A DNA stretch of 63,118 nucleotides, counting the filler, from Circinaria calcarea (lineage: Eukaryota), in the NCBI GenBank assembly GCA_051942165.1. It is 7 parts of 7 records of this genome, joined end to end, with 100 filler letters (N's around TTAATTAATTAA, not from the genome) between each part and the next. Parts side by side here need not be neighbours in the genome. Positions count along the whole stretch, not along the records: positions 9,055 to 18,002 come from JAVECS010001017.1; 6 more parts are not named here. One strand, 5' to 3'. Position numbers and translations under genes: made by a program. Below the pieces are notes generated by a model. The model was not told where the DNA came from. It searched no databases and saw nothing but the letters and a program-made list of their open reading frames with translations. Positions 6,831-60,562 of the stretch are shown here, piece after piece; the stretch's first letter is position 1; each line of letters opens with the position of its first letter.

Positions 6831-8105
6831 GACGTATCTCCCTACCACAAATGGCAACTTTTACGGCAAGTAGGAGAAACATGAAAGATTATTAAGAAAA
6901 CATGCTGATAACAGCCTAGCTCGCATTTCTAGTACCCACTGTTACAGAAAACAACAAAAGTTGGAAGCTTTATTGCATATGTTTTAGAATCACTCCACAT
7001 ATCCCAGCCAGCTTGAAATTTGTGGGATCAGAGATATATGCTCATTAAGTACAGTTTCTTTGGACTTATAATACCACTTCCTAAGACCTCAGTCTACCAT
7101 ATACTGGATCTCACTCCGATAATCCATATAAGCTGTCCCATTGAAAACAACCATATCCAGCGAAACAAAAATGTGTGAGAGTGCTGCTCCTTTCGCGATA
7201 GTATCTTTAGCAGTAGGAGTACTCGGAGAATCTTGCCCATCCTCCTATTCAGTCTCCTACAGAACCCTGCCAGGATCGCGCCCCACTTACCGGCATCATT
7301 CGAGCTTGGACATTGGATATAGCTAGCGCCCGAGGTCCCACTGTGGTTGTAGGTCCACGTACGATGCGCGAGCATGTCGCTATAATAATCTTGATACAAC
7401 GCGTCATCGTCGTTGGCAGATAGCCCCTCAGAACCCCAGCGATGGCACTGGCCGGGAGGTCTACGAACTTGCCAGTCACTACAAAGGGGCGGACACGTCT
7501 GCAGCAGAATTTTGGACTTCGAATGGCTCGTTGAATAAGGCGATGTCGATGTTTTTGGGATCGCGGTGGTTGTAATCATTGCGTAAGGGGGGATGCCAAC
7601 GGGGTTCATATCGAGTGGTTACAAAGCAAGTAGAGAGCATATTGCGTTTGAAAATAAGCTTGCTCAAAGAAATTGTGTACCACCTTTAAACCTTACCTCA
7701 GGACCACAACTTAATGCTCTTCAATACGAGATTTATCACTTCACCATTTGTTCCCAGAGCATACTCGGTTGATGAAAGATGTCTCGTAACTATCAAATAG
7801 GCGGTTCAAGAGCGTGCCGCGCGCCTATATTATACAATAAATAGAAGCTACTGAATGCGCGTGTACGCGTAATCAAATCATGGAGGGAATATCACCAGAA
7901 TTGGGTTTAAATCTCAACAGCGCTACTTTTGGTGGTCTGGTGGTTCCCCCTCCTATTTCTACTACCTCTGAGTATGGAACGATCATCTGGGCGCTAGTCA
8001 ATATTATACAGTGCTGCATTCAGCCAATAGATAGTCCCAAATATCCACGAAGAAGGTCAGATGTCTGGAGTTGGTGATGACCCAAATTAGTTTCTTCTAG
8101 GAAGT

Positions 8106-8269
8106 TGTCACGTAGTGAAAGGCGTGCTCTCAAGTGCATAGTATGTGTATTCAGTGTAAGATGGAAGTGTGTAGCTAGAATGGCTACACGAAGCTAAATA
8201 CATGGCCCGTAGGGCTGCGCGGGCCGACGTGCACCCGTCAGGGGGTGGCCTAGGGCTGACCCCATGACA
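8106..8269. mobile_element. Solo LTR (164 bp) with 5-bp target-site duplication
   Basis: TGTCACG...CATGACA termini flanked by GAAGT on both sides (8101-8105, 8270-8274); related copy at 16755-16905. Confidence 0.85.
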
Positions 8270-8954: not shown

Positions 8955-9054
8955 NNNNNNNNNNNNNNNNNNNNNNNNNNNNNNNNNNNNNNNNNNNNTT
9001 AATTAATTAANNNNNNNNNNNNNNNNNNNNNNNNNNNNNNNNNNNNNNNNNNNN
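8955..9054. other. Artificial contig linker N44-TTAATTAATTAA-N44
   Basis: All-frame-stop spacer embedded in Ns; identical at six places. Confidence 0.97.
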
Positions 9055-9480
9055 GAATCTACTACGGTATTTAACCGGATATAGTATAATTTAGGGATAT
9101 TTAATACGCGACGTTTCGCTGCACACTTTCTCCACACGCGATTTAATCACAATATTAACCTATTTTTACTGCTTTGCAAGGCTTGTTCTTATATAATCGC
9201 AAAACCTAAGCTGAGTTCATAACATGCTCCGCATTACCTCATAATTTAAAACCACGTTCGAAGTCATCGCAGCTCCTCTCCACGCTATTATCCGATGGAA
9301 GGGGGTTTCCATTGGGCTTGTTGTTGGCGCAACTGGTAAAGAGCTTTAAATTTCAGAGGGTTAGAAGGGTTCTGGGGGCGTTGAAGGGTTAAAAGAATTA
9401 TAACGGATTAATTGGCGAAGGAAGAGGGACTTTATAATTAATATAACCAGTAACTAAGACAGCTCCAGTGTTCTTATATC
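9055..9480. mobile_element. AT/TpA-rich degraded repeat relic (RIP-like)
   Basis: Visible TpA excess and no ORFs at the contig edge; family not identifiable. Confidence 0.45.
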
Positions 9481-10476
9481 GTATGTATATTTCGGTTTTA
9501 TTTTGCCGCACAATAAGCTCCTATATCGCTTACGCCAGATTGCTGAGATTGGGATCTCTTGGCAATACAGTTTTCCTTGCACCTGCCAATTTAGATGGCC
9601 TTCATTACGGAGTAGTCTTGCAGACCACCAGAATCCGCCATATACTCCCTCTTAAAAGGATCTTCCCTGCGTCTCCGAAGCCTGTGGATGTGCCTGGGTT
9701 ATATATTCATCGCATTCCCTGAGATTGATCTTTTCTATTCGTCCGCTCAGCATAGCAACAACTTATGTTTGTCGGGGACACACCTATTAGGGAACCTAAT
9801 GGTCAATGACCTACGGGACCCCGGACCTGCACTTTGTCGGCACAGGGCATTTTATATCATACAAAAGAGGCTTACCGGGGATGTCGTAATGAGGAAAACA
9901 ATGTCCGTTCTCGCAGATCAATCAGGTGGTTACAGTGCACTTAATTTGACAGCCTTGCCCTGAGTGTTCCTGCATGTTTGGCGGCCATTACATGTAATTG
10001 TTGGCATGCTTCTATCCTGCTATCAATCCACTTGACAACTGCTCCGAGTCTTCTTTTTTCAACAGGGTAAGCCTCCTCTGCCAATCATCTGGAATACACC
10101 CAATTTATATATGTGCATCTCGACAAATGTAGCTCCATAATTAGTTCTAGCCACCGGTCTAACCGGGCTCTGAGGTTCTACAAGCATTGCCCGGCCTGGG
10201 AGCTAGTAGTATGTCTTGCAGTAGAAACCAAGACGGGAGAGAGCCACCAGACCACAAAAAGTAGCGCTATTAAGATCTGAACCCAATTCTGGTTATATTC
10301 CCGCCGTGAAGCCTTCTGCGCACACTCTGCTTCCAATATGTTTTCAATAGTAATCTCCGCTGTGCCGGTATCACCGGAGTGCGCCCAAATCTGGCAAAGT
10401 CTATTCAGCAGATATAGCAGTTGGTATAATCGCCGATATTAAGCGATGGTATGACTCACTGGTCCCCGCCAAGCCC

Positions 10477-13114
10477 TCAGTCTCCCTCTACCCGATTATG
10501 GACGTCCTTTCCATGAGTATCTATGTCATTAGTATCATCGTTCCAGTGAAGGTACGGAGCTGTATTATTGCTGTTCGGCGAGACCACATCTTTTGATTCG
10601 TTATTTGGATTAATATCCGTTACGCTAGAATTCCTGGGTATCAAACGGAAAGCTTCATCGTCGGAATCATAATCGAATTCGCTTCGCTCAGCGAATTGAT
10701 TTGCTGATAAGAGCATATCCGAATTCGCCTTTTTCTTTTCCATCCTCTCATCGGTATCTGACATGGACCTTGAGCCTTGACTAAGAGTGTCTTGGCTGGG
10801 CAGGATGGAGAGCTCCGCGTCGTCCTCGCTACTATCCCCTTGATCGAGTGCTTTTATGCGAGGCAGACCCTCATCACCGTCTTCGCTAGAATATTCAACA
10901 TAGTCAACAAGGTATTTCGTACAGTGACTCTCATCAAACAAATTGTAGTCCCAGTCATATTCACCGTCTTCAGACTTTTCAAAGTTGGAGCCATTGTCGT
11001 GACTGCAGACGTCTTCATCGCTATCGTAGTCAGACGTCAGTAACAACGCAGGGTCCCCCTCCCTCGCATCCCTTGTAGGCTGAAGTAGGGGAAGCCGGTA
11101 CTGCCGTTTCATTCGGCCAAATATCTTTGCGTCTCGATGGGCGCTTTTCGGTAGCTGAACGATTTTGTGGCACGAGGGATCAATGACCTTGTTGAATGGG
11201 GTTGCCAAATATCGGTGAACACCAGGTGTTTGAGAGGTGATAACTATCTTACATATTATCGACTCGACCATGGTGAGATCTTTGACGAAATCCAGCAGGC
11301 TCTCGAACCTCTCAACCTCTTCGCCGTTGCGGCTTATTCTCGCATATAATGTGTCAATTCTGTCTATCACAACATATAGACACGGCGGTTTGACAATATA
11401 TAGGCACTGCTGAAAAAGCTTCCGTAACTCCGGAAGATCGTTTGCAGCTTCCTCAAATCGCCGTTGAGTAAGATGTTGCTGGCGGCAGACTTCATATGAA
11501 AACGCACGACTATGTACCAATATCAACTGACTTAAAATTGATTGGAGCAACATTCCAGGGCTGCTGCAATGTAGAGGCTGCTCTCCTGAGAAATGTCGCA
11601 GAACAGTTATTTGATCAAGGCTCTGTGTAGCTCCGATGATTTCTAGGCAAAAATTCGTGGACCAATCCGACTTTCCGCGGTCCATACTACCCTCAACCCA
11701 AATCAGCCGCGATTGTTTGCTCTCTATCCACGAAAAGATCTCAGGATTGGATTGTAGAATTCGGGTGTAAATGGTCGAATCCTCGATAGGGTAACGTTGC
11801 AAGCAATTGTTCAGATCTTGATCCGTTACACCTATTGCTGGAAAAACACGATCAAAAAACTTCCGCGCGTTATTCGTTGGTCGTACAAATTCAGCGAGGA
11901 AAACCTCCGGGGTATTTGCTATTACCGTAGGTTGGAAGGCAGCTAGAAGCGTTGCAGTATCTGATAGAATCAGCATAGTAAATGATCAATGGCGGGACAA
12001 ATACCATGTTTCAAGCTCGAATAATCTAGTCCGATTTGCTGCACGAAAGCCTTCATTCCCTGTTGGAAGCTAATTGTATTGTCTGCCTTTTCTGCGATCG
12101 TTCGAAGGAAGGCCATTTGTGTTTCTCCATAGCCTATCTGGCATTGCAATATCGCCGATTGCCGCCTCTGGATGGACTTCTGTCCTAGACCCAAATTGAC
12201 CGTGTTATCAAGGATTCGTTCCACAGCAATATTCTGGCCTAAAGCTGCGATTCCATTTACCCGTGCAACATTTGCTTCAATATTCTTCACGAAGTGCTGA
12301 AACCTAGTTTCCCATGGGCTTATAACGGCTTTAAAGGCTGCGACTGTGTCCTTATCAGCCCAGTCAGAATCATGATTATAATTTGTGGCCCAATACCTGC
12401 TCTGTTTTCATTATAATACCGAATTGCTTCTAATAAGAATGCCTCACAACCCACGTAAACCTGCGTCACCGCTTTCACCATATCCGCAGATGGCTGCAAC
12501 TCTACAATCACTTTCATTAAAGAAAGGTGGGACCCAACTTCGTCCAAGGTTTGTATGACACCATCCTTAAGTTTTGCATTGTTAACGCTTGCCAGCAAGA
12601 GAAGCTTCACAGCTCCCCAAACAGCCGTGGTATATTCAGGTGCTTGATTATTAAGCACATCAAAAAGACTCTGATAATAATGAGCAATATCGCAAAATTT
12701 GGCATATCTTGAGCTTAGACTCCTCTTCCAAGGTGTTCTGCTTGCTCTGGCTTCCCGCTTGATTTGTGCCTCTTTTGCCTCTTTAATGGCTTTTTCGAAA
12801 TCCTGTTTCACTGCGTAGTATCGTTTTTGATCTTCCTTGGTCATAGTTCGTTCGAAGTTGAGAACTTCCTGTGCTAACGCTGCGCGGGACTTGTGCATGT
12901 CTGGACTAATAAGGCTTATTAGTACAACATGTAGGCAGGGTATACAATCTCCATGCGAAGCTTACTCCTTAGTAATGGCACTAGCCCATCCATTCGCAGA
13001 CCATAGGGCCATGCCGTTACTCGGATTTGCTGAGCTCTGAGATGTCTCATCCCGAGGAATCAGCGATCGTTTTTGCTCGCCCTGTGTTTGCTGCCGGAAA
13101 TCAAGAGAGGCCAT
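10477..13114 (-). CDS. NACHT-like STAND P-loop NTPase with helical N-terminal domain (DUF7708-like) and acidic disordered C-terminus, 4 exons
   Basis: QAPEYTTAVWGAVKLLL N-domain; LIWVEGSMDRGKS (GxxxxGKS); LLQSILSQL; Walker B LYVVIDRID; KIVITS. ATG 13114 with GT-AG introns linking the three track ORFs. Confidence 0.8.
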
Positions 13115-13920
13115 CACAATAGCAAAGTTGGCTGAACGGCTGCTGCGTTCTAGTAGGTAAGTCGGTTTTCCTCGATAACCTTAGACGTCCAGGGCAATAA
13201 ATTCACTCTTGGACCTTAAAGCTCTCGTAAAGTAGCTTTTCAATTCAAAGCTTATTTTTATTTATTCCCTATGCATAAAAATTTTCTCGGTTGATCAAAA
13301 TTAGATCCACGAATGTCCCTCAATAATATGCAAGCCACAAAATATTAGTGAATGCTACATAGGCAAGGCTGTCGCAAGGACTCCAAGGCTCTGAATGGCA
13401 CCACATAATACTGCGGCAGCAGGCAAAAACAATTCGTAGCCTCTTGGCACGCTTGGCAACGCTGCTTTTATATAGCCAATAAATTTTACTGTTAAGTATT
13501 TACGCTCGCATAGTAATTGATATGGGGGGCCTTATAAATTGGCAAGAGATCAGCCCCCGGAGATCTGCAGCGCTACGAATTGCCTTGCCTGCTACCGTAG
13601 TATGTTGCATACGCCACATCTAATTACCCTTCAGTAGCCATGTCGATCGACCACCCACACCAACGCATACATTCAGCTAGAGGAGGCTGAGGCCCAAGGC
13701 TGCGATGGACCGGTAACTTTCTTCGTGGATTTCATTTCCAGCATCTTTGTGCTTACTTTCCTTGCCGATAATTTCAGATGACACACATACTTTCATAGGC
13801 CTTGCCACGGACTATTTAACACCGATTACGTCGTTCTCCTACCACTACCTACTGTCGCCCTTTGAGTATCCAGCCAAGACGAGCTCGCCAAATGGATTAA
13901 GCGTTGATTCTGTTTTTACA

Positions 13921-16683
13921 ATGCGGCCAGACGAAGACTTCGAAAGCTCGAATACAACATCTATAAGCCAGAGCAAGGGCCAAGAAGATTCGAGTACTTC
14001 GGCCAACATGCCAGGCATGGACGACCAAAGCGTAGAGGCCCCTGCCGGGGCAGGCTGTGCAAGTCCACAGCTGAGCTCAGAGTTAGGCAAAGATGAAGAA
14101 CTAACTGATATACTCTTCGACGTAGAAGGCATGCAGAGGCAAATAGTAGAAAGAATGAGAAATACGAAGGCGAAAGACGTTTTCTACAATTTCCAGGAAA
14201 CCACTATTCTAAATCATATTGTTCGACGATCTAATGAGGCTAACTGGATAACTGCTTACGTCGAAAATTTGCAAAAGACTATCAAACGGCTCGTAAGCGT
14301 TGTTGAACATCAGACGCCTGTAAGTTTCAGAATCTCCTTATCCTTAAAGAATCCAATATCGGCTTGCTCTCAACACAATCGAAGCGTGTCTAACAAGGTG
14401 TCGCAGTCGTCAGAACGAGAGAAGGTACTCCAGGAACATGTGAAGTTGCTGAAACGAGAAAACCGCCGTACCAAAAGGGACCTTGCACAATACAAGAGAT
14501 TCGGTCCTCCGAGCTCCGATGATGAGACGTCAAGTGAAGACGAGAAACAACAGGATCCCCCCCCGGAACCAGCACTGATACCTGAGGTAAAGCGTTGGAA
14601 AACAATAGAAGATAGGTTCAAAGAAAGAGAGTTTTATGACGACGACGTAGCTTTCAATAATGCAGGAGGCAGAAAAACTGGATCGGCCAAGCATGTTGTG
14701 GAATGCTTTCGACATTACACAAAAGATAAAATATACCAAGGAACCTCTATAACCATTCATTCAAGACCACTTATAGATTTGGTTAAGCGTACAGTTGGAT
14801 ATTACCCAGGAAACGATTTCAAATCGCTTTCCTCAGATCATGTCTCCATTGACGAACCATATATGATTCTGTTTCACAACAGGGTCAAGTTACAATGTGC
14901 TCTATTAGAGTCTGCAGGAGAAGCGCAGGCACACCTGCAGCTGCTTCTGGAATTTCTTCGTAATGAGCTGCCTAGAGTGGCTGAAAAGCTTGACGAGATC
15001 GAACAATCTCGGTGCAGTGAGATCAGCTATGATGAGGTTTGGCTTCTATACACGCCCAGAACAATAGTTTATTCTCAAGAAGACGACGAATGGCGGGCGT
15101 ACAAGGTTGAGAGACTAAGCGGCTATGAAATCACCAGCAGCGGTCACAGAGCACCTTTGCGAGTCGATATCTCCTCTGCGGGATTCAACGACTCGGGGGA
15201 TGACCTGATATGGTATTTCGAGACTGCAACAGTCTATCCATATAATGGAAACGACGTTATAACCACCTTCAAGTTGATTCCTGAAAATTTTGTACCGAAC
15301 CGAAGTAGCCTACAGTCAGAGCTCCCAACGAGAGGCAAAGAATATTGGAACTATAGAGGGAGAAGCCACTATCGTGAATACTTAGGTGCTGCTTGGCATA
15401 GGAATGATGCTACGGTAAGGCAATTTCTCAAATCGATAGGGCTTTCGTAACTAATACTTAATAAAGGAGGCTGTGAGGGTTATAGTAGATTACGTAACCA
15501 CGAGTAGTCCGCATGGAGATATGGACGCTAGAGGACTCCGGAAGCAGCTAGAGTTAGAAGAGGATGCGTCTATGGCGCCTCAGCGTCACAGACCTCGCCA
15601 TGGCCTAGAACAGCGACTATCACGATCGCCATCGCATTCGCCAACTCGAACTTCTCCACTTGAATCTATGACTGTTCGGAAAAGGTCGCGGTCAACTGAT
15701 AAAGAAGATGAGGAATATATTAGGAACATGCTCCTGTTCTGTCCTGCCCATGTCTTTGCGTTCTCATTAAGGAATAAGGATTGGCGCGACGTCAAAACCA
15801 AGGAACTTAAAGACGTAACGTTCAATGAAAAGGCGTTCAGAAAACTTGTCATTGAAAGGCGGTATAAAGCCATCGTTACAGCTATGGTCAGATCATATTT
15901 AAAGAAGACCACCGACTTCAAAGATTTGATTCAGGGAAAAGGCCGAGGCCTTGTAGTTTTACTGCACGGCTCGCCAGGGACAGGGAAAACACTTACAGCA
16001 GGTATTTCCATTCCACCCTAATCTCCGCTCTATCCTCATCTAACGATAAAATAGAATGTGTCGCAGAAAGTGAGGAGAGACCAATGTACATAGTAACATG
16101 TGGAAACCTTGGCACAAACCCCACAGATCTCGAGAACAACCTCCGCGAGACTTTTGAATATGCAGTGAACTGGAAGGCTGTGCTTCTACTCGACGAGGCC
16201 GACGTCTTCCTCCAAGAGCGCGATATCCACGACCTGAAACGAAACGCACTTGTCTCGGTTTTCCTTCGAGAGTTGGAATATTTTGACGGGATCATGTTTC
16301 TTACCACCAACCGCCCAGGAGCCTTGGACGAAGCTTTTCAATCCCGGATTCACATTACCCTCCGACTTCCAGATCTAGACCCGGACTCGCGGTTAAAGAT
16401 ATGGGCTATTTTTGTGCAGGAGCTCGAAATCAGCCACGGCGACAAGGAAAGCCTGATGAGGAACATCCAGAAAGAGGTCGGTAACGAAAACCTCAACGGG
16501 AGGCAGATTCGGAACTGCATCCGTGCCGCCCTGGCAATGGCAGCGCAAGATAACGTTCAGATTTCCGGTAGACATATCAAGGACATAGTTGAGATCGGGA
16601 AGAAATTTACGAGCTACATGAACGATGTCAATGCAATGGATGTGCGGCAACGCCAAGCTGCTATGGGGATGAGGTTGGCATAA
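13921..16683 (+). CDS. Fungal AAA+ ATPase with long N-terminal region (DUF7025-like)
   Basis: Walker A GSPGTGKT, Walker B LLLDEAD, SRH TTNRPGALDEAFQSRIH, NLNGRQIRN; N-terminal EPYMILFH..HLQLLLEFL..ISYDEVWLLY; introns near 15415-15466 and 16002-16053. Confidence 0.9.
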
Positions 16684-16754
16684 TGAGATTCTTGGGTTGA
16701 GAAATGATATAGATACGTCGGGCTTCCTATAGAAGTAAAGCTGTTCTTCCTCCT

Positions 16755-16905
16755 TATCACGTAATGATGGTATAGTCCTAAGTGCAAAGTATGTGTACTC
16801 AGTATTAATATGAATGGTGTGTAGCCACAATGGCTGCATAAAGCTAAATACATGGCCTATAGAACTGCGCCGGCAGTCAGAGTGGCTCTGGGCTGACCCA
16901 TAACA
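16755..16905. mobile_element. Second, more degraded solo LTR of the 8106-8269 family
   Basis: Shares GTATGTGTA.TCAGT, GTGTGTAGC, AAGCTAAATACATGGCC and GGGCTGACCC blocks; termini TATCACG...CATAACA; TSD not preserved. Confidence 0.75.
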
Positions 16906-17016
16906 GTCCCTTAGATACTCCGTACTTACTCCGGAAAACAAGCAGCCACTTTTTATCATGAGGAAAAAATCTACCCGCTCGGCCGGATCTGATACCTCTG
17001 GGAACGCCTTATTATC

Positions 17017-17109
17017 TGTTATGAGCCGATGCTCATAGGTACCATACTGCGGCTACAAGGCTGATTTCCCCACTTGGGCCTGAGTGTAGAGTCACACAGA
17101 AACATAACA
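17017..17109. mobile_element. Possible short or deleted solo LTR
   Basis: TGTTATG...CATAACA 7-bp inverted termini; no TSD; single copy in the window. Confidence 0.3.
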
Positions 17110-17334
17110 CGACATTATACTAGGATACGGTGGGTGACGAAATCGAGCTGCAACCAAGATATCTACCCTGAAAGGAGGCGGGAGAGTAACGGCTTCTGGC
17201 TTCGAAAAGAATAACCCGGTCCGATCCAAGCAAAATTTTGCTCAATTGCTGCTCAAAGTCCAAAGGCCGTAAAGGGTTTCAATTTTCTGCAACATTGAGC
17301 GCGAATTCCATATTCTTTACGCTGCTATAGCAGC

Positions 17335-18002
17335 TTATGTTCTTTCCATGCTGCATGCCATTTTCATACTGCATGCTATTTCCATGCTATGCTGCGTGCT
17401 CTCCCTATGCTATCCTGTGTGATATTATAGCTCTATGCTCTGCGCTCTATTAGGTTTATGCTATCAGCTCCATGCTCTGCTGCAGCTTTATACCCTATGC
17501 CGTGCTTTATGCAACTCTCCATCCCGGGCTCCATGCAATAGTTTATAGAATGGCCGATATCTAATTAGCTATACTTAACAATTTATATGATACGAACCTC
17601 CGGCTATAGCAAGCAATAATCGCCTGCATATAAGCCGTTTCATGGCCTTGGGTGCTTGCGCGCATTACTATTATAAAAATACTAGATTATTCTTGTTCCG
17701 CAGTCAGGAGTAAAAGTTTGAGTGAGTATAACACGCATCCTAATCTCAATTATTTGGAGAAAAGGCTAATTGGAAAGCTTAAATACCAAATCACCCCCGG
17801 AGCAGTTGGGAAATTAAATTATTACCTAAGCTATTTAACTCTCTATTATCGTGTAGTTAAGATATTAAAACGTATTAAATATCGGGTAATAATATAAATT
17901 ATTAAAACTCTTTTAATAAAAACGAAATTATCCGAGAATATTATAATCGGAATTTCCAGATCACGTTTCTATAATATTAAATATTTTTAAATTAATTATA
18001 TT
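17335..18002. mobile_element. Degenerate CCATGCT-type minisatellite followed by a strongly TpA-rich RIP-like TE relic
   Basis: Many (C/T)ATGCT variants at 17335-17540, then rising AT content with TpA excess up to the contig end. Confidence 0.6.
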
Positions 18003-47564: not shown

Positions 47565-49156
47565 TAGGGTGCTTTCCACTCCACTTCTTATCTCTTTCGC
47601 CCATACATAGCCCCCCTAGTGGAAACTGCGAATGACAGAAATAGAAGCCACAATTCCAACGTGACGGTCTCGTTGGATTGAGACTCAACATCATCATGCA
47701 TGTAATATGAACCCTCGGTCGACTGCTCAAGGATCACCATTTATGGGCTCGAGTCAGGCGTAGATGAGGTCCTGTGGATGGCTGCCCAATCGGGGCGATT
47801 CTATGCATTCAATATGGGCGATCTGACAGCTTCCGGTATCTCAAGACTCGTACTGTCTCAGTGGCAGTGCCTTAAGGTAAACTGAGAACCAAAGGCAGGC
47901 TACATAGGTAAGTATGGGGCAACAACAGCAGCAGCCTTGTACAACCCGACAACGAAATAGTTTGGAATGCGGTGCAGAGAATACTCAGACTTACTTGGGT
48001 CGCTTTACATGAAGATCCCTGGGCCTCTTCACGACGTCCGGTGTATGGTAGGGTATTATTTGGTACGCTAGTATCAGGCGTAAGGTATGCATTCTACTGG
48101 TTCTTCCCCCACTACCAATGAGATACTCTTCCATCGGTATCCCTTCAGCTGGCAGTGCATCATCTGAGGCTGTGCCAACCAGTCGCACAACTTGAACTGT
48201 ATGGGAAAGACGTCCGATTAGCTCTCTTCAAGAGAACATTGCTCAAAAGAGATCATATCCGTGGCCCTCCACCACCGAGAAGATTTCTGCGCTGGCTTTT
48301 AACCTAACCGAGAACGTTCTCGCAGGGCTTATTACCGGACATCAGTTTCCAAGATAAGTTCCGGCAAGGCTTGGCCAGATGTCACCATTACTACTTGAGA
48401 GCTGGGAACGCTTCTCATACCACATGTCGTGGTCTCTCCCTTTTTCTTATTTGCTGGATGTATAAGGCTACGATGTGGGTTTTGCAGTAATGTGAGACTG
48501 CACAGTATTCTATCCGTGAGCGTTAGCTGCGGATGAAGGTGTGGAAGGGTGTTGCATGATACCTGCAGGGCTCACATATATGTGACTGGGGTCTTTTCTG
48601 CTTTCACTGGCTGACGGATTGACGCACCGTTGCGGCCTATACATCCTTTGGACATGAATTGTACTACGGTGTTTTGATGGTAAGAACTGGTCTCATTCTA
48701 AGGCAGCCTTTAACGTTAGGCTAAAAGGCTTAGAAAGATCAGCCATAATTAGGACGGGTAACAGAATGGCCTAGCCGAATGTTGATGAGAGCACACTTCG
48801 CTCTCGGGAAAAGGTTATAAAGGAATGGGTCATATCCGAAATGGGCAATGTTATCTTTGCTCTCTTCATTCCATGTATTCCCCGCCGAAGTCTACTGGCC
48901 TACAAATTCTATTTCAGGGGGCAGCTTCTTGAAAGAGCGATCCTAAAGATGTGAAGTTAAAAGGAGCGCTGCAATAAGAAGGCAAAAGCACCTCTATGCC
49001 GCAACAGTCACTGTTCACCAAGAAGGCTTGTGCTACGTCTACGAGGCTTTACAATTTGCCAACCTTTTCTCGCAGGGAAGGCGAAGATACTTCTTTCTTG
49101 ACAACCACAATTCCCTCCTTCCTTTGCCATACTTTTTTTGCTTGTTTCACTGAGTT

Positions 49157-51926
49157 ATGGATCCCCTTTCAATTGCTGCTGGCATCATCACCATCGTCGG
49201 TGTTGGAGGACAGGCTGCTAAAGCTGTTAGAAAGCTCGCATCCCTCAAAGGCGCTCCAGACTTAGTCCTCGCCCTGAATAATGAAATATCCGATCTTCAT
49301 CTTGTGGTACTAGCCATCCAGGACGTATTTAAGAGACAGCAGACCAGTGGTTTGTCTTTCCCAGGGAATCGAGCATTGAATGCCAATGTTGATGCCAGCA
49401 TTACCAATTCTCTTCAATATGCAAAAGAAAAGGTTGTTGAGCTGGAAGCTCTGCATAATCGATTAACTACAACCGCAACCGCTTCCGGGTCTAGTGACTC
49501 AACAGCTTTTAACAAGGGTGCATGGTTGCGAGAGCAGAAAAGGGTAAAGAAAATGCAAGAGGATCTCCGTAATGTGAGGCTCAAACTGGCATCTGCTCTT
49601 AGCGTTCTCAACTCGTGAGTACAGTTCCTCATACCTCATGAACCTCCATCGACTTGTGGGTGGTCAACGCGTGCCAGCATCTTAAATAATTTGATAGCCG
49701 TGTTTGAGACCAACCCTATCGATCCATCTAATTCGTTTACTTTGCTCACGTCCTTTGCTGACTCAATAACAAAACACTAGGTCTACTCTATTACGCATTC
49801 AAGAAGGAGTGCAAGCCACTCAGAACAACACAGCGCACCTGCAGACGCTTCAACACCAATACGAGACAGCCCAGCGTCAGAGGGCAATTGGTCAGGAAAA
49901 CTCTATCCAGGTCATTCAGGATAAAACGATGGAAATGCAGACATTGCAAAAACAAAGCGAGACAGCCCAAGCGCAAAGGGCGGCTGGTCATGAGAGCTCA
50001 GTTCAAGCGATCCAGGATAAGATAAGGGACTTGCAACATACTCAGCAGGGGATCGCCAACATTCAAAGCCAGAGGTTAGCTGAATACGAGACTGCCGTAC
50101 AAAAGCCGATCTCACAAGTTCTGGTCGCTCAGCAGAGCTTGGAGCTGAAACTGGATCTCATTGAAGCCAGACGCATAGCAAACAACGCCGAGTCCGGGCT
50201 TAGAGCCGCAACGCAGTCATTTCTCAATTCAAGGAGCCCACTAGACCGTAGTTCGACGTCGAGTACGGTTGGGATTACAGCATCAATGACCCGGTGGCAA
50301 TGTCCGGACAGCTGTACGTGCAGCTGTCATCGACACCAGCGCCCTAAAAAGATGACCCCTAACATCTTAGACCGCTTTATCGGAGTTCTTTTCGTGGGTT
50401 ATCTCGGTATTCCAAAGATAACTGAGCGGTGCAATGATGGAGATTGTATTCAACAGTCAAGTTCAACTCTTTCAATTTTATATTTCTTCCCAACGTGGCT
50501 TCTAGCACGTGCCATGATACTGTTACTGAAATTGTCATCGGCACACGGGCTAGAATTGTATCTTCGGATGCCTCGGCTCGTTAGTAACTCGTCGATAATT
50601 TTTTCTTTCGCAGTACATGGGGATGTTGAAAGCTTGAAGGAGATTTTCTGCCACGGCCTCGGATCCCCAATGGATGTAGATGTGACTGATGGCAGTACCG
50701 CCTTATCTGTAAATCAGGGCCCCCAACAAGCATGTATATAGCTAACAGTGGCTTAGTATGCTATAACCTCTGGGAGAACAGAAGTTTGTCAGCTACTTCT
50801 CCACGCAGGTGCAGATCCGTATCTCGAGAACTATCAATCCATGTAAGCATACGTCTCATTATCTGTGACTCATACTTTTAACTAGTTGACAGTTATGGAT
50901 AGAACCGCTACCGATAAGGCTTGGGAAAGTATCCTAAGCAATGAACATAACGCGAGTACTCGCGAAAGCCTCAGGGTACTTTTCCCTAGCCAAGGTTTTC
51001 TAGAAAAATTGAACTTCAGTCTGCTACACAGGATTGTACTTGGGCTTAACCCAATTAGCCTTGACACAATAATCGATAGTCTTTCTAGATCCGTCATCAA
51101 CGAAAGTGATGCATTTGGTCGGACGGCGCTTTGGTGGGCCGCTAGACGGGCTGATTCTTCGAAGATTTCTCTGTTATTGAAATACGGGGCAGATGCCAAT
51201 ATACAGAGTTCAACAGGAGAGATGCCCTTGATGACGGCTATATATACCAGGAATCAGACATGCATCAGATTACTCTTGGATGCTGGCTCCGAGATTCATT
51301 ATAGAGACCCACAAGGCTGGGCATCGTTACATTTAAGCTGCTACTACGGTTCTGACATCGATATCGTGGAGGCTCTCCTTCGTGGGGTTGGTGACATTGA
51401 CGATAGATTATCATCAGGCTATAATACATCTCTTATGCTCGCCGCACAGGGAAATCACATTCATATAGTAAAGTATCTCATTTCTCGAGGCGCGAAGCTG
51501 AACGCGACCGACATCGACGGCGAAAGTTCTCTTCATGTTGCCCTGTCGGGCAATTGCCTAGAAGTGCTTCGCTTCCTTTTGCAACACAAGGCAAGTCACT
51601 GTCTTAAAACGAAAGCTGGTGAGGGTTTGCTTCATTATGCTGCCCAGTTTGGAAATGTGGAATCCTTGAAAGTTCTTAACGCGTTCTGCCTTGATGGGAT
51701 CGATCCCGAGGACAGGATTACAGGAGTCTCGCCCCAACAAATATTCAAAGTCAAAGGTCTAACAGCACTTGAGATTGCCGAACAACGAACAGACGTCACC
51801 CCGGAATGGCGGGCCATGTTTCGAAAGTTGGTGCATGGCATTCGTTTTCCAGAGAGCAAAGGTCCTGAGCTTTCAACAGTGGAGGAGACGGAAGAGTTCG
51901 AAGATGCTCTTGAGAGCCAGGACTGA
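49157..51926 (+). CDS. HeLo-like/fungal N-terminal domain, Q-rich repeats, Cys-rich segment and ankyrin repeats, 4 exons
   Basis: MDPLSIAAGIITIV..ALNNEISDL N-domain; CPDSCTCSCH..LFVGYLGIP..C...C; ANK motifs GRTALWWAA, GEMPLMTA, TSLMLAA and GESSLHVA. Confidence 0.85.
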
Positions 51927-57801: not shown

Positions 57802-57823
57802 TTATTAAGCCGTTGGAGAGACT

Positions 57824-60562
57824 ATGGCCGAGCCACAAAAACAGCGGGCTAATACCTGTTCCCAACTTCGCAAGGAGCTGAGTAATTCATCACAAACGGA
57901 AAGCATAGAGTGGTCTTTTTCAAATATCTCACTCACAGCGGAACCAAACCAGGCGTCTTCCTCATATAATGTTGAACTCGAAACAATGCCCGAAGAGCCT
58001 TTCTATCACCTTGCATTCCAAGCAACTCTAAAGAGAGGCATCGCCCTTGCGCATGACATGGTTCAGGCCCTTGAGAAGTGCAAGTCAGCATCAGAACCCC
58101 AACCCGACCTAAGTAGACTGTTAGAGGATGCTAGGGATCTAAGCAGTTTCCAAGGCTCTGATACGAGGACAATTGCTATCTTGGGAGATTCTGGAGAAGG
58201 TAAGTCAAATCCAAGCTTCAACCATTAACAGAATAGCTTACTATGAATAGGAAAGAGTAGTTTGATAAATTCTCTGCTACACTGTCCAGGTATCGCTAAG
58301 ACAGTCGGTATCCTTTGGCTCTTTGATTGTATGCCTACTAATTGGCTATCAGGGGGCTATTGGAAGTGCCTGTACATCGGTCGTCACAGAATATCAACAG
58401 AAGACCTCCCACCACAAGGCCCCTATCGAGATTGAGGTGGAGTACCTCCCCAAACCTCAGATCGACGAGTTCGTAAAGGAGCTGGTATGGAGCTATCGTC
58501 AGCTTCAACTTCCAGACATACAGGACATATCCAACGCTGAGGAATACAAACGTTATCGATCCGAGTCTGAAATTGCCATATCAACCCTCGAGGCGGCTTT
58601 CGGACATAGACGAGAGTTCGACGCACTAATGAGTGACAATGGTGAGGGAGCGTCGGAAAGGATTACAAAGAAACTTCTGGATTGGACCGAAGACCTCGAG
58701 TTGCCTGAAGGAGACGGTACGGTGTGGAAGTCATCTGCAGAAACAGCGGAAGAGTGCTGTGATAAAACAGAAAAATTCATGGGGGACCGACTTTGGCCAT
58801 TCACAAAGGTTATCCGGTGAGATTGATCTGCTCTTGCGCATTCTCACTGAGGAGCAAAACTAAATGCAGCCAAAGTGTCTACCTTGATGCGCACGTACTA
58901 AAGACGGGAATTGTCCTTGCAGATTTACCGGGTATGTACTATAAGCCGAGTTATCCATTGCATAGGATTTGCTAAAAGCAATGAGCAGGATTGCACGACA
59001 CTAATCTCGCCAGAGTAAAGGCGGCCGAAGACTACCTCTTGAAGTGCGATCATATATTCATTGTTGCTAAGATCGCCCGAGCCATTACCGACCAATCCTT
59101 AAAATCATCAATCTACTCCGTAATGGAACGACATGCACCTCTTGAGTGGGAGAACTCTGCTGGCAAATATTTGAATCTGGCCGTAGTTTGCACTAGGTCA
59201 GAGGACATCAAGGTAAAAACACATCGAAAGGACTTCTGTGGACCTGGCAAGAGAATCAGTGAGGCTGTAATGAACGAGCTTGACCGTGAAATACAACAGG
59301 CGAATGGTGCCAACAACAGACACCTCAAGAAAGCCCTCAAGCGTAAACAAGAGCTTCTCCTAATAGAGGCACGGAATGCTCGTGTCAAGGAAGGTCTCCA
59401 GCGTGCATACTCGGCCAAAATTCCAGGCGGCAATTTGGAAGTCTTCTGCGTTTCTAATTCAGCATATGAGAAGTATTCAAGAAAAGGTAATACGGAATAT
59501 GTTAATGGAAGCGGCATCCCACAGCTCCGCAACTTCTGCTATACTGTCGCGGCAAATGCGCAATTCCTCGAAGCAAAACATTTCTTACAATCGAGTTTAT
59601 CAAGTCTAGTGAACTCTGTCAAGTCATGGGTAGAGAACTTTCGAGGACGGCCAGGTGCTGCAAGTTACCAGGAGATGGAGGAGCTATCGGGGGCCCTCGA
59701 TAACTTATGTGCGGGGATGGCGAGCATTATCAACGACACCAAAACCAGTTCAGCGGAAACCTTTCAAGAACAGTTATGTCTGCTGATGGATAATCGGAAC
59801 GAGCCATGGGAACAGGCTGCCAAGGTACAAAGTTCAAGCTGGACGGGGTGGCACTGGACCCAATATAATGCATGGTGTATTAACAACGGCACTCACTCTA
59901 CAAAAGGGCGTCCCCTTACCCGCTGGAATTCGCTACTCATTTGGAAGATGAGACAGGAGGAAGATTTCCCGTGGACTTTGATCGAAGAAGAGATCCCTGG
60001 ATACTTCAAAACGCTTGAAGAATCATTCCGAGAGGAAACGTCAAAAGTTAGAACAATCGCCAGTCAATACGGGAACGCCCCAACATTTAGTCAGGGGATT
60101 GCACTAAGGATTGAGGATTTGAAGTATATCCTTGCTGTTATCCAACGGAATTTTCTCAAAGAGTTTACTGTTATCCGTCGTAATGCGTCCGACGACAACC
60201 GTAACTCTTATGTTTTACGAGCAATGCTGCCATCCTACCGATCTGCCTCTCAAGAGTATGGCAGTGGCAAAATGGCGCGCCAGCACGAGACAATACGATG
60301 TCGAATCGCCAATGGAAACCTATTCCCGATCATTTCCTTTTCCATCCAACAGGACATGACCGCGTTGATCGATAAGACATTCAAAGACATACAGGAGAAA
60401 GTTCAAGGAGTGCTAAACCTTATTCGCGCAGATCTCGAGATTGTGTTCAGTCAAATGGCTGCTGTCAAAGATGAAGCAAAGGAAGAGCTAGCAAGCCGGG
60501 TTGGGTACTTCGAGGAGGAGCTCGAGAATGTGTTGGGGAGGATCCCTACGTCGTCGATCTGA
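57824..60562 (+). CDS. Dynamin-like large GTPase (SLIP-GC/NUGGC-like, DUF7605-type), multi-exon; start uncertain
   Basis: G1 GDSGEGKSSLINSLL (spliced), G2 ACTSVVTEY, WPFTKVI, G3 LADLPGLHD.N.AR, G4-like VCTRSEDI, SGIPQLR; long helical C-terminus. Confidence 0.85.

What the first reader, a model, noticed from the sequence alone, without database searches (positions are those of the whole stretch)
10477..16683. Head-to-head sensor-less NACHT and AAA+ ATPase pair in a repeat-bounded island: candidate two-ATPase immunity/allorecognition module
Seen: these are the only intact genes on the contig. They are divergent, share ~800 bp (13115-13920) and are flanked on both sides by RIP-like relics and LTR remnants. 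Known: fungal NLR/STAND genes often act in adjacent gene pairs at variable TE-rich loci, and this AAA+ family has no settled function. Inference: a co-regulated module in which the AAA+ remodels, restrains or triggers the NACHT protein. This is my best candidate for an undescribed system here.
Basis: partly seen in the sequence, partly recalled or inferred. Interest (0 to 1): 0.7.

Follow-up and report, generated by a model that had tools for sequence, protein, structure and literature searches.

The report
Co-inherited AAA+ and pseudo-NLR gene pair
Two back-to-back fungal genes, an ATP-driven AAA+ machine and a cut-down immune-receptor-like protein whose family has mostly lost its ATP-binding loop, are copied and inherited together across many fungi and are sometimes fused into one protein, so they very probably work as one unit whose job is still untested.

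Summary
Both genes are intact, divergent (806 bp between start codons) and spliced in one RNA sample of a close relative. Minus strand: DUF7708 helical head, coiled coil, NACHT-like domain, acidic tail, no sensor. Plus strand: DUF7025-AAA+ with intact catalytic motifs. The pairing is real: head-to-head partners for 10 of 12 informative AAA paralogues in this genome and 9 of 16 in metagenome loci; consecutive locus tags in 4 of 4 testable named species; 14 of 20 tree splits shared over 23 pairs (shuffles at most 3). The partner family is mostly P-loop-less (GK[ST] in 3 of 99), so 'two-ATPase' is wrong for the family, although this copy keeps the motif. Seven relatives are single-chain fusions of both proteins, all with a degenerate AAA Walker B. 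The 'repeat-bounded island' is mostly a 9-kb contig: short decayed repeats flank it, LTR identity was not shown and RIP is marginal. An immune or cell-death role is inferred from NLR ancestry only; binding is untested. Nine paper searches found no description. This scan noted the same module before on other DNA (eight notes seen).

The parts
10477..13114 (-). Truncated NLR-like gene, 826 aa. Exons 13114-12966, 12905-12397, 12343-12005, 11960-10477. The source's own model P0001 is 809 aa and differs at intron 2.
   Evidence: Open frame with GT-AG introns; RNA contigs of run X1 skip all three introns; protein on record.
12231..12703 (-). DUF7708 (Goodbye-like) helical head, split by intron 2, followed by a long coiled coil
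   Evidence: Pfam E 3e-25 and 0.002 on the two exons; Atlas neighbours DUF7708/Goodbye at 0.92; all-helical model, residues 40-323, pLDDT 50-90.
11233..11754 (-). NACHT-like nucleotide-binding domain (NPHP3_N), with no HD1/WHD or repeats behind it
   Evidence: Pfam E 2e-9; model pLDDT ~90 over residues 335-585; best fold matches Avs3 8dgc_A Z 13.5, rmsd 3.1, 190 aligned, tied with Cdc6/ORC at Z 12.4-12.9.
11668..11691 (-). Walker A-like GSMDRGKS: intact-looking here, not conserved in the family
   Evidence: GK[ST] in 3 of 99 aligned relatives and in 1 of 22 paired partners.
10480..11106 (-). Acidic, predicted-disordered C-terminal tail (209 aa, 25% D/E)
   Evidence: pLDDT < 50 for residues 589-809; composition.
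13115..13920 (.). Shared divergent intergenic region, 806 bp
   Evidence: RNA contigs reach 13202 from the left gene and start at 13776 before the right gene. Promoter sharing itself is inferred.
13921..16683 (+). DUF7025-AAA+ ATPase gene, 856 aa. Exons 13921-14319, 14407-15414, 15467-16001, 16055-16683.
   Evidence: Model has the length of record P0002; an RNA contig joins the end of exon 3 to exon 4.
15001..15294 (+). DUF7025 domain
   Evidence: Pfam E 1e-11.
15956..16635 (+). AAA+ core and lid; Walker A at 15968-15991, Walker B at 16180-16203, sensor-1 Asn733 and arginine finger Arg745 all present
   Evidence: fold closest to p97/CDC48 D1 (6hd3_A Z 19.0, rmsd 2.7, 230 aligned).
9108..10401 (.). 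Left flank: decayed dispersed repeat pieces (not part of the module)
   Evidence: 25 matches elsewhere at 69-90% identity; a ~90-bp piece at 10220-10310 recurs on about 20 contigs.
16755..18002 (.). Right flank: short dispersed repeat, low-complexity repeat and AT-rich contig end (not part of the module)
   Evidence: 84 matches elsewhere at 68-89% identity; last 200 bp GC 0.20.

Best explanation
An obligate two-gene module derived from a fungal NLR. SHOWN: the pair is duplicated, inherited and lost as a unit. The partner has an NLR-type helical head and an NLR-type nucleotide-binding domain but no sensor and, in nearly all family members, no P-loop lysine. The free AAA+ protein keeps all catalytic motifs. 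In one lineage the two are fused, with the pseudo-NACHT placed 44-53 residues before DUF7025. INFERRED: the partner docks through its pseudo-NACHT domain on the AAA+ N-terminal/DUF7025 region. The AAA+ ring then stands in for the switch and wheel the partner lost: it gathers the helical heads into an active oligomer when its variable N-terminal region meets a cue, and ATP turnover resets the complex. INFERRED, weakest: the output is a nonself or pathogen response, probably cell death, because the heads belong to the Goodbye/HeLo/MLKL-like group.
For: Linkage: 10 of 12 informative AAA paralogues in G000; 9 of 16 in metagenome loci; 4 of 4 testable named species. Co-phylogeny: 14 of 20 splits, shuffles at most 3 in 5000, no conflict at support >=90. 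A prediction held: AAA C930 fell in a paired clade and its partner was found across an assembly break, with both halves sister to pair L100 at support 100. Co-decay of both genes in the duplicate C1087. Fusions: 7 of 7 relatives of 1000 aa or more among 149; their NACHT halves are sister to this protein (support 0.89) and their DUF7025 parts match this locus best in 6 of 7 cases, 1 tie, among 51 loci. Walker B glutamate is lost in 7 of 7 fused AAA halves, which fits a scaffold role. Heads vary among NLR effector types: DUF7708 in most, PF17111 (Helo_like_N in 10.1101/2022.03.16.484565) in L053 at E 1e-5, below the curated cut-off. Both genes are spliced in one sample.
Against: There is no functional data of any kind. 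No allele polymorphism or presence/absence within a species was examined. Neighbourhoods are ordinary: 1 HET gene and no NLR among 37 ORFs beside pairs, whereas 2 of the unpaired loci have ANK/TPR genes nearby. The cited preprint says cell-death activity of Goodbye-like domains is not established. The direction of control (assembly or restraint) is not decided by my data. This copy keeps a GKS motif, so it may bind nucleotide itself. Two partners lie downstream on the same strand (L058, L067), so head-to-head order is not required. The Mantel test on the 7 own-genome pairs alone was not significant (rho 0.29, p 0.17).
Confidence: 0.45

Rival explanations
1. Adaptor model, not immune: the pseudo-NACHT protein is a dedicated cofactor or substrate adaptor of the AAA+ (as p47/UBX proteins are for p97; recalled), and the pair does lineage-specific protein remodelling or stress work.
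For: It explains linkage, co-phylogeny and fusion equally well. The AAA fold is closest to p97/CDC48, NVL and FtsH. Flanking genes are ordinary metabolic genes.
Against: Ten divergent pairs in one genome, swapped NLR-type heads, about 14-21% identity between partner domains and decayed copies look more like a conflict system than a housekeeping cofactor (inference).
Confidence: 0.25
2. Restraint (guard or toxin-antidote) model: the partner self-assembles and is toxic, the AAA+ keeps dismantling it, and loss or inhibition of the AAA+ triggers death. It would work like Cap7/TRIP13 in CBASS (recalled).
For: No partner without an AAA+ was found in G000 where it could be seen. In C1087 the AAA+ deletion goes with a premature stop in the partner. 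The Trip13 complex 6p8v_A is among the fold matches (Z 15.5, well below p97).
Against: Fusions carry a Walker-B-dead AAA in 7 of 7 cases and stay open frames, which is hard to square with restraint by hydrolysis unless an active paralogue helps (not testable here). The stretch after Walker A has no conserved aromatic residue; reading it as pore loop 1 is recalled.
Confidence: 0.2
3. Co-regulation only: the genes share a bidirectional promoter and are duplicated together, but the proteins act separately in one response.
For: Head-to-head order dominates (19 of 21 pairs whose orientation I saw), and both are transcribed in one sample.
Against: In-frame fusion of cognate halves needs a rearrangement and removes the AAA+ N-terminus. 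Same-strand pairs keep their cognate partner type.
Confidence: 0.08
4. Chance neighbours in a repeat-rich dump for fast-evolving genes.
For: Both families are large here (19 AAA genes or fragments, 102 NPHP3_N matches), and decayed repeats flank this copy.
Against: Chance of 10 of 12 is below 1e-20 under uniform placement, even counting 90 NACHT loci. Only the degenerate NACHT type lies on AAA contigs. The trees are congruent.
Confidence: 0.02

Closest known systems
Canonical fungal NLRs with DUF7708/Goodbye-like head, NACHT (NPHP3_N) and ANK/TPR/WD repeats (PMC12258605, passages; 10.1101/2022.03.16.484565, passages)
   Same: Same head and nucleotide-binding domain families. The unpaired DUF7708 loci of this genome are of this kind: P-loop seen in 6 of 12, ANK/TPR in 6 of 9 ORFs scanned.
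   Different: Of 16 partners checked, 15 end 14-80 residues after the domain (1 intron-cut); this one has only an acidic tail. No WHD, no repeats, P-loop mostly lost, always tied to an AAA+ gene.
Bacterial iSTAND ternary systems: MoxR AAA+ + vWA + inactive STAND with variable N-terminal effectors (PMC7159879, passages)
   Same: An active AAA+ ATPase is encoded with a catalytically inactive STAND domain that carries variable N-terminal domains. This is the best analogue for how it may work.
   Different: The AAA+ here is classical-clade-like (p97/FtsH fold matches), not MoxR; no vWA or other recurring third gene; no prokaryotic relative with the N-terminal region among 80 loci.
Paired sensor/helper NLRs of plants, and the rare head-to-head NLR pairs of Sordariales (13 of 225 two-NLR clusters; PMC12258605, passages)
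   Same: Head-to-head order, short shared upstream region, split labour.
   Different: Only one gene is NLR-derived; the other is an AAA+ ATPase.
Coprinopsis somA/somB NACHT-kinase loci (10.64898/2026.06.24.733965, passages)
   Same: A NACHT gene head-to-head with an enzyme gene, 1-4 loci per individual, tied to somatic incompatibility.
   Different: Kinase and LRR genes, not AAA+ (0 occurrences of 'AAA' in that text); basidiomycetes.
Neurospora doc-1/doc-2 (PMC4831770, passages)
   Same: Adjacent ~830-aa genes for kind recognition.
   Different: doc-1 and doc-2 are paralogues of each other, with no AAA+ domain reported. Sequence kinship to the partner was not tested.

Membership tests
Canonical fungal NLR (tripartite) | N-terminal effector-type domain | tested here: met
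   DUF7708 E 5.5e-24; Goodbye/DUF7708 Atlas neighbours.
Canonical fungal NLR (tripartite) | NACHT or NB-ARC-type nucleotide-binding domain | tested here: met
   NPHP3_N E 3e-9, above cut-off; STAND/Cdc6-like fold.
Canonical fungal NLR (tripartite) | Functional Walker A P-loop | tested here: inconclusive
   GxxxxGKS is present in this copy but in only 3 of 99 relatives; nucleotide binding cannot be measured here.
Canonical fungal NLR (tripartite) | C-terminal WHD and repeat (sensor) domain | tested here: not met
   No Pfam hit after residue 558 and a disordered tail; the contig holds no further exon-like ORF downstream.
DUF7025-AAA+ (AAA_lid_13) fungal ATPase family | DUF7025 + AAA + AAA_lid_13 architecture | tested here: met
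   All three above cut-off.
DUF7025-AAA+ (AAA_lid_13) fungal ATPase family | Walker A, Walker B, sensor 1, arginine finger | tested here: met
   G637-T644, D694-E695, N733, R745.
Paired sensor/helper NLRs | Both genes encode NLRs | tested here: not met
   The second gene is an AAA+ ATPase with no NACHT/NB-ARC hit above cut-off.
iSTAND MoxR-vWA ternary systems | Inactive STAND component | tested here: met
   P-loop lysine motif absent in 21 of 22 partners; met for the family, doubtful for this copy.
iSTAND MoxR-vWA ternary systems | MoxR-clade AAA+ | tested here: inconclusive
   The 50 listed fold matches are led by p97, NVL and FtsH, with no MoxR protein named; absence from a list does not exclude it.
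iSTAND MoxR-vWA ternary systems | vWA third component | tested here: not met
   No third gene on this contig; no vWA hit and no recurring family among 37 ORFs of 210 aa or more beside pairs.
het/vic allorecognition locus | Allele-specific incompatibility and balanced, trans-species alleles | not testable with these tools
   One genome and one related RNA sample only.
doc-1/doc-2 locus | Two paralogous genes | tested here: not met
   The two proteins have different domain sets; the paper calls doc-1/doc-2 paralogues.
LTR retroelement remnant (flanks) | Terminal direct repeats or gag/pol relics | tested here: inconclusive
   No left-right repeat, no Pfam hit in 3 ORFs; the repeats are too decayed to class, and no TE library was at hand.

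The most novel reading that the evidence does not exclude
A widespread, undescribed class of ascomycete immune module in which an NLR has handed its nucleotide switch and oligomerisation to a separate AAA+ ring. The AAA+ is sensor and scaffold, the P-loop-less partner delivers an MLKL-like death head, and the fused forms with a dead AAA+ are single-chain receptors or passenger subunits of the ring. It would be a eukaryotic counterpart, arisen independently, of bacterial AAA+/inactive-STAND conflict systems.
Probability: 0.35. Interest if true: 0.88.

Novelty: new variant of a known kind. Interest (0 to 1): 0.7.

Why it matters
DUF7025-AAA+ proteins are a large fungal family (4582 of 8000 scored candidates at E <= 1e-30) for which I found no paper by domain name. 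The pairing gives several of its clades a specific partner and a testable job. It also shows a class of NLR-derived genes that lack repeats and a P-loop, which surveys built on those features would tend to miss (inference). Ten pairs in one genome with matching trees allow cognate versus non-cognate tests. I file it as a variant of NLR-type modules because the partner's NLR ancestry is shown and the mechanism is not; it fails membership of every named system I tested.

Tried and rejected
Complex prediction of AAA+ residues 184-856 with partner residues 325-610 gave no answer: score 0.00 in two runs, alignments not used, no controls folded. It counts neither way. Word-index homologue searches for the partner found only itself or 3 proteins, so locus-tag matching rested on 19 looked-up relatives. 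The long AAA hits P0082, P0087 and P0092 are tandem DUF7025-AAA proteins, not NACHT fusions. Prokaryotic origin: 80 loci match the core only, none has the N-terminal region, and partner profiles gave no hit below E 0.8 in 865 kb. L059 has a NACHT nearby, but it is a canonical ankyrin NLR, convergent and about 5 kb away; counted as unpaired. The fold of the AAA+ N-terminal region was barely tested because the core filled the lists. The tree position of the fused AAA halves is unreliable (long branches), so I used best matches instead. Of 102 RNA-contig differences only 40 were listed; these gave 25 non-synonymous and 15 synonymous changes, a biased subset from which I draw nothing. Runs X2 and X3 gave 0 and 1 contigs. 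A sequence look-up in earlier findings gave nothing, nor did a word search for fusions. The 'TE-rich island' and 'two active ATPases' readings were rejected as described above.
Full report
Setting. The window is seven unrelated contigs of 8913-8954 bp joined by N-spacers. The finding lies on G000:C1017, window 9055-18002, in a 31.5-Mb assembly of 5512 contigs. The protein search names both products as hypothetical proteins Q9187_004840 and Q9187_004841 of a Circinaria calcarea MAG. 'The only intact genes on the contig' is therefore true of a 9-kb piece and says little by itself.

The two genes. Minus strand: four exons, 826 aa with the intron-2 acceptor that RNA supports. Pfam finds DUF7708 and NPHP3_N and nothing after them. 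The model has a helical head and coiled coil (residues 40-323), a well-predicted alpha/beta domain (335-585) and a disordered acidic tail. The domain matches STAND and Cdc6/ORC folds: Avs3 Z 13.5, tied with ORC/Cdc6 at Z 12.4-12.9. Plus strand: four exons, 856 aa, DUF7025 + AAA + fungal lid, with Walker A, Walker B, sensor 1 and arginine finger intact; the fold is closest to p97/CDC48 D1 (Z 19.0). In one biocrust metatranscriptome, 19 contigs 90-99% alike cover parts of both genes, skip all three introns of the first and join exon 3 to exon 4 of the second. This is a relative, one sample, and contigs give no strand or level.

Flanks. Both sides carry short decayed repeats found elsewhere in the genome at 68-90% identity. 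I could not class them as LTRs: no left-right repeat, no Pfam hit in 3 of 3 ORFs. A RIP-like signature is clear only in the last 200 bp. Over 11 contigs that carry pairs, 0 of 420 windows met strict RIP thresholds (the last ~150 bp of C1017 fell outside those windows).

The pairing within this genome. Searches found AAA or DUF7025 matches on 20 contigs; C3145 continues C1600 (141-bp exact overlap), leaving 19 genes or fragments. Profiles built only from relatives of the window protein found a NACHT-like gene head-to-head on C1600, C997, C172, C1169, C1217, C631 and C1087. The AAA tree put C930 and C2042 in clades of paired genes. C930 turned out to overlap by 141 exact bases the end of C2624, which carries a degenerate NACHT on the opposite strand. 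C2042 has head- and coil-like ORFs upstream on the opposite strand that run off the contig; these are judged by eye, with no profile hit. That makes 10 pairs, 9 without C2042. C626 and C214 have 4.8 and 14 kb upstream and no partner. Seven others have under 4.2 kb upstream and were set aside, so the count is 10 of 12 informative, or 10 of 19 overall. Under uniform placement 10 of 12 has P < 1e-20 even with 90 NACHT loci. Of 102 NPHP3_N matches only three lie on AAA contigs, all weak, degenerate ones. The 15 other DUF7708 contigs fetched have no AAA hit and look like ordinary NLRs. C1087 is a ~94% copy of C1217 in which the AAA+ has lost 1.9 kb and the partner has a premature stop in its first exon.

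The pairing elsewhere. Of 80 metagenome loci, 16 DUF7025-type genes had at least 4.1 kb upstream, one of them found incidentally on L084. Nine have a head-to-head partner, one (L058) has it downstream on the same strand, and six have none. L067, too short upstream, also has a same-strand downstream partner. All six unpaired genes, and C626 and C214, fall outside the paired clades. The taxonomy of these loci was not determined. Of 19 partner relatives looked up, four came from a named species that also appeared in my AAA lists. All four have consecutive tags or accessions: Bacidia gigantensis KY384_004930/31, Psora testacea Q9217_006030/31, Annulohypoxylon moriforme KAI1459642/43 and Colletotrichum paranaense CPAR01_09621/22. 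The last two were targeted look-ups, and orientation cannot be read from tags. A fifth pair (P0006/P0141) is inferred only from an equal contig length.

Co-evolution. Over 23 pairs the AAA tree and the partner tree share 14 of 20 splits; 5000 label shuffles gave at most 3, and no two splits with support >=90 conflict (12 of 19 for 22 pairs, Mantel rho 0.36, p 0.0004). Five of the pairs were chosen as relatives of the window proteins, so part of the agreement is built in. Eight shared splits involve only pairs found without regard to partner type. Paralogous pairs of this genome group with pairs of other genomes, not with each other, so the unit is older than the species. The Mantel test on the 7 own-genome pairs alone was not significant (p 0.17).

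The partner is a pseudo-NTPase family. GK[ST] occurs in 3 of 99 aligned relatives and in 1 of 22 partners, this one. The Walker B region keeps two aspartates (82 and 85 of 99). Whether this copy retained or regained the lysine, and whether it binds ATP, is open. Of 16 other partners checked, 15 end 14-80 residues after the domain. Heads vary: DUF7708 in most, PF17111 in L053 below the curated cut-off, none recognised in several.

Fusions. Among 149 relatives, all 7 of 1000 aa or more join the partner to DUF7025-AAA in one chain; two are named, from Chaenotheca gracillima and Aspergillus mulundensis. Ten shorter records also run from the partner into the AAA family's N-terminal region; 3 of these were checked and confirmed with Pfam. 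NPHP3_N ends 44-53 residues before DUF7025, so the AAA+ N-terminus is gone. This, and the opposite orientation of free pairs, argue against merged gene models (inference; I could not see the DNA). The fused NACHT halves form one clade sister to the window protein (0.89), and the DUF7025 parts match this locus best in 6 of 7 cases with one tie. It is therefore probably one event, between cognate partners of this clade. The Walker B glutamate is lost in 7 of 7 fused AAA halves and the Walker A lysine in 3 of 7.

How it most likely works. A protein with an NLR-type head but no sensor, no WHD and usually no P-loop cannot switch itself. It is kept with one specific ring ATPase and can be fused to it. 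I infer physical coupling, with the AAA+ ring supplying assembly and reset (0.45). A non-immune adaptor role (0.25) and restraint of a toxic partner (0.2) remain open. Dead AAA halves in the fusions favour a scaffold over a pure disassembly motor. The immune output rests on ancestry and on the conflict-like pattern of copy number, divergence and decay. Against it, neighbourhoods are ordinary (1 HET gene among 37 ORFs; 34 of 59 ORFs beside unpaired genes were scanned for comparison), and the death activity of Goodbye-like heads is stated to be unproven (10.1101/2022.03.16.484565).

Known systems and print. The nearest analogue is the bacterial iSTAND-MoxR-vWA system (PMC7159879, passages), which differs in lacking this AAA family and needing vWA. 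Head-to-head NLR pairs are rare in Sordariales (PMC12258605, passages). NACHT-kinase loci (10.64898/2026.06.24.733965, passages), doc-1/doc-2 (PMC4831770, passages; PMC13557503, passages) and the Aspergillus fumigatus het loci (PMC11138114, passages, 0 occurrences of 'ATPase') use other partners. PMC13449251 mentions AAA+ once, in methods. Nine searches showed no paper on this pair; the other listed papers I saw only as listings and abstract starts. The library lacks most subscription papers, and I read no supplements, where gene tables could list such pairs. p97 adaptors, Cap7 function and the pore-loop position are recalled, not taken from calls. The scan itself reported this module on other DNA in eight notes; these are unchecked and are not counted as support.

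Verdict. Function is inferred. Interest 0.7.

Noticed in passing
window 8955-9054 and five more places (18003, 27045, 36068, 45091, 54106): Identical 100-bp N-TTAATTAATTAA-N spacers join size-sorted unrelated contigs; any 'island' or synteny read across them is an artefact.
   Followed up: yes
P0082, P0087, P0092: Xylariales proteins with two tandem DUF7025-AAA-lid modules in one chain (1412-1550 aa); whether one module is inactive was not checked.
   Followed up: partly
L084:1-12100: Two different AAA/pseudo-NACHT pairs lie side by side, partners tail to tail; they belong to two distant clades in both trees.
   Followed up: yes
G000:C1087 (L052:1288-2973): An intact-looking HET-domain gene lies next to the decayed pair.
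   Followed up: partly
window 7878-7963 and 8132-8224 versus 10220-10309 and 16780-16874: Two ~90-bp dispersed repeat pieces lie 170 bp apart on the neighbouring contig but flank the gene pair here, one inverted; each recurs on 12-20 contigs. Possibly ends of a small non-autonomous element.
   Followed up: partly
window 17310-17540: Low-complexity repeat that recurs in arrays on dozens of contigs at 70-89% identity.
   Followed up: no
window 49154-51926: Gene with a PF17111 (HeLo-like) N-terminus and ankyrin repeats; no NACHT was evident by eye in the ORFs between them, which were not scanned.
   Followed up: partly
window 57809-60562: DUF7605 gene with an upstream P-loop-like motif; looks like a dynamin-like GTPase (by eye).
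   Followed up: no
P0178 (Gnomoniopsis N0V82_004057), P0201: Records that end after DUF7025: partner plus DUF7025 without the AAA core; true truncation or incomplete gene model is unknown.
   Followed up: partly
G000:C214 and C2854: Near-identical (95%) duplicate of an unpaired, long-branch AAA paralogue.
   Followed up: partly
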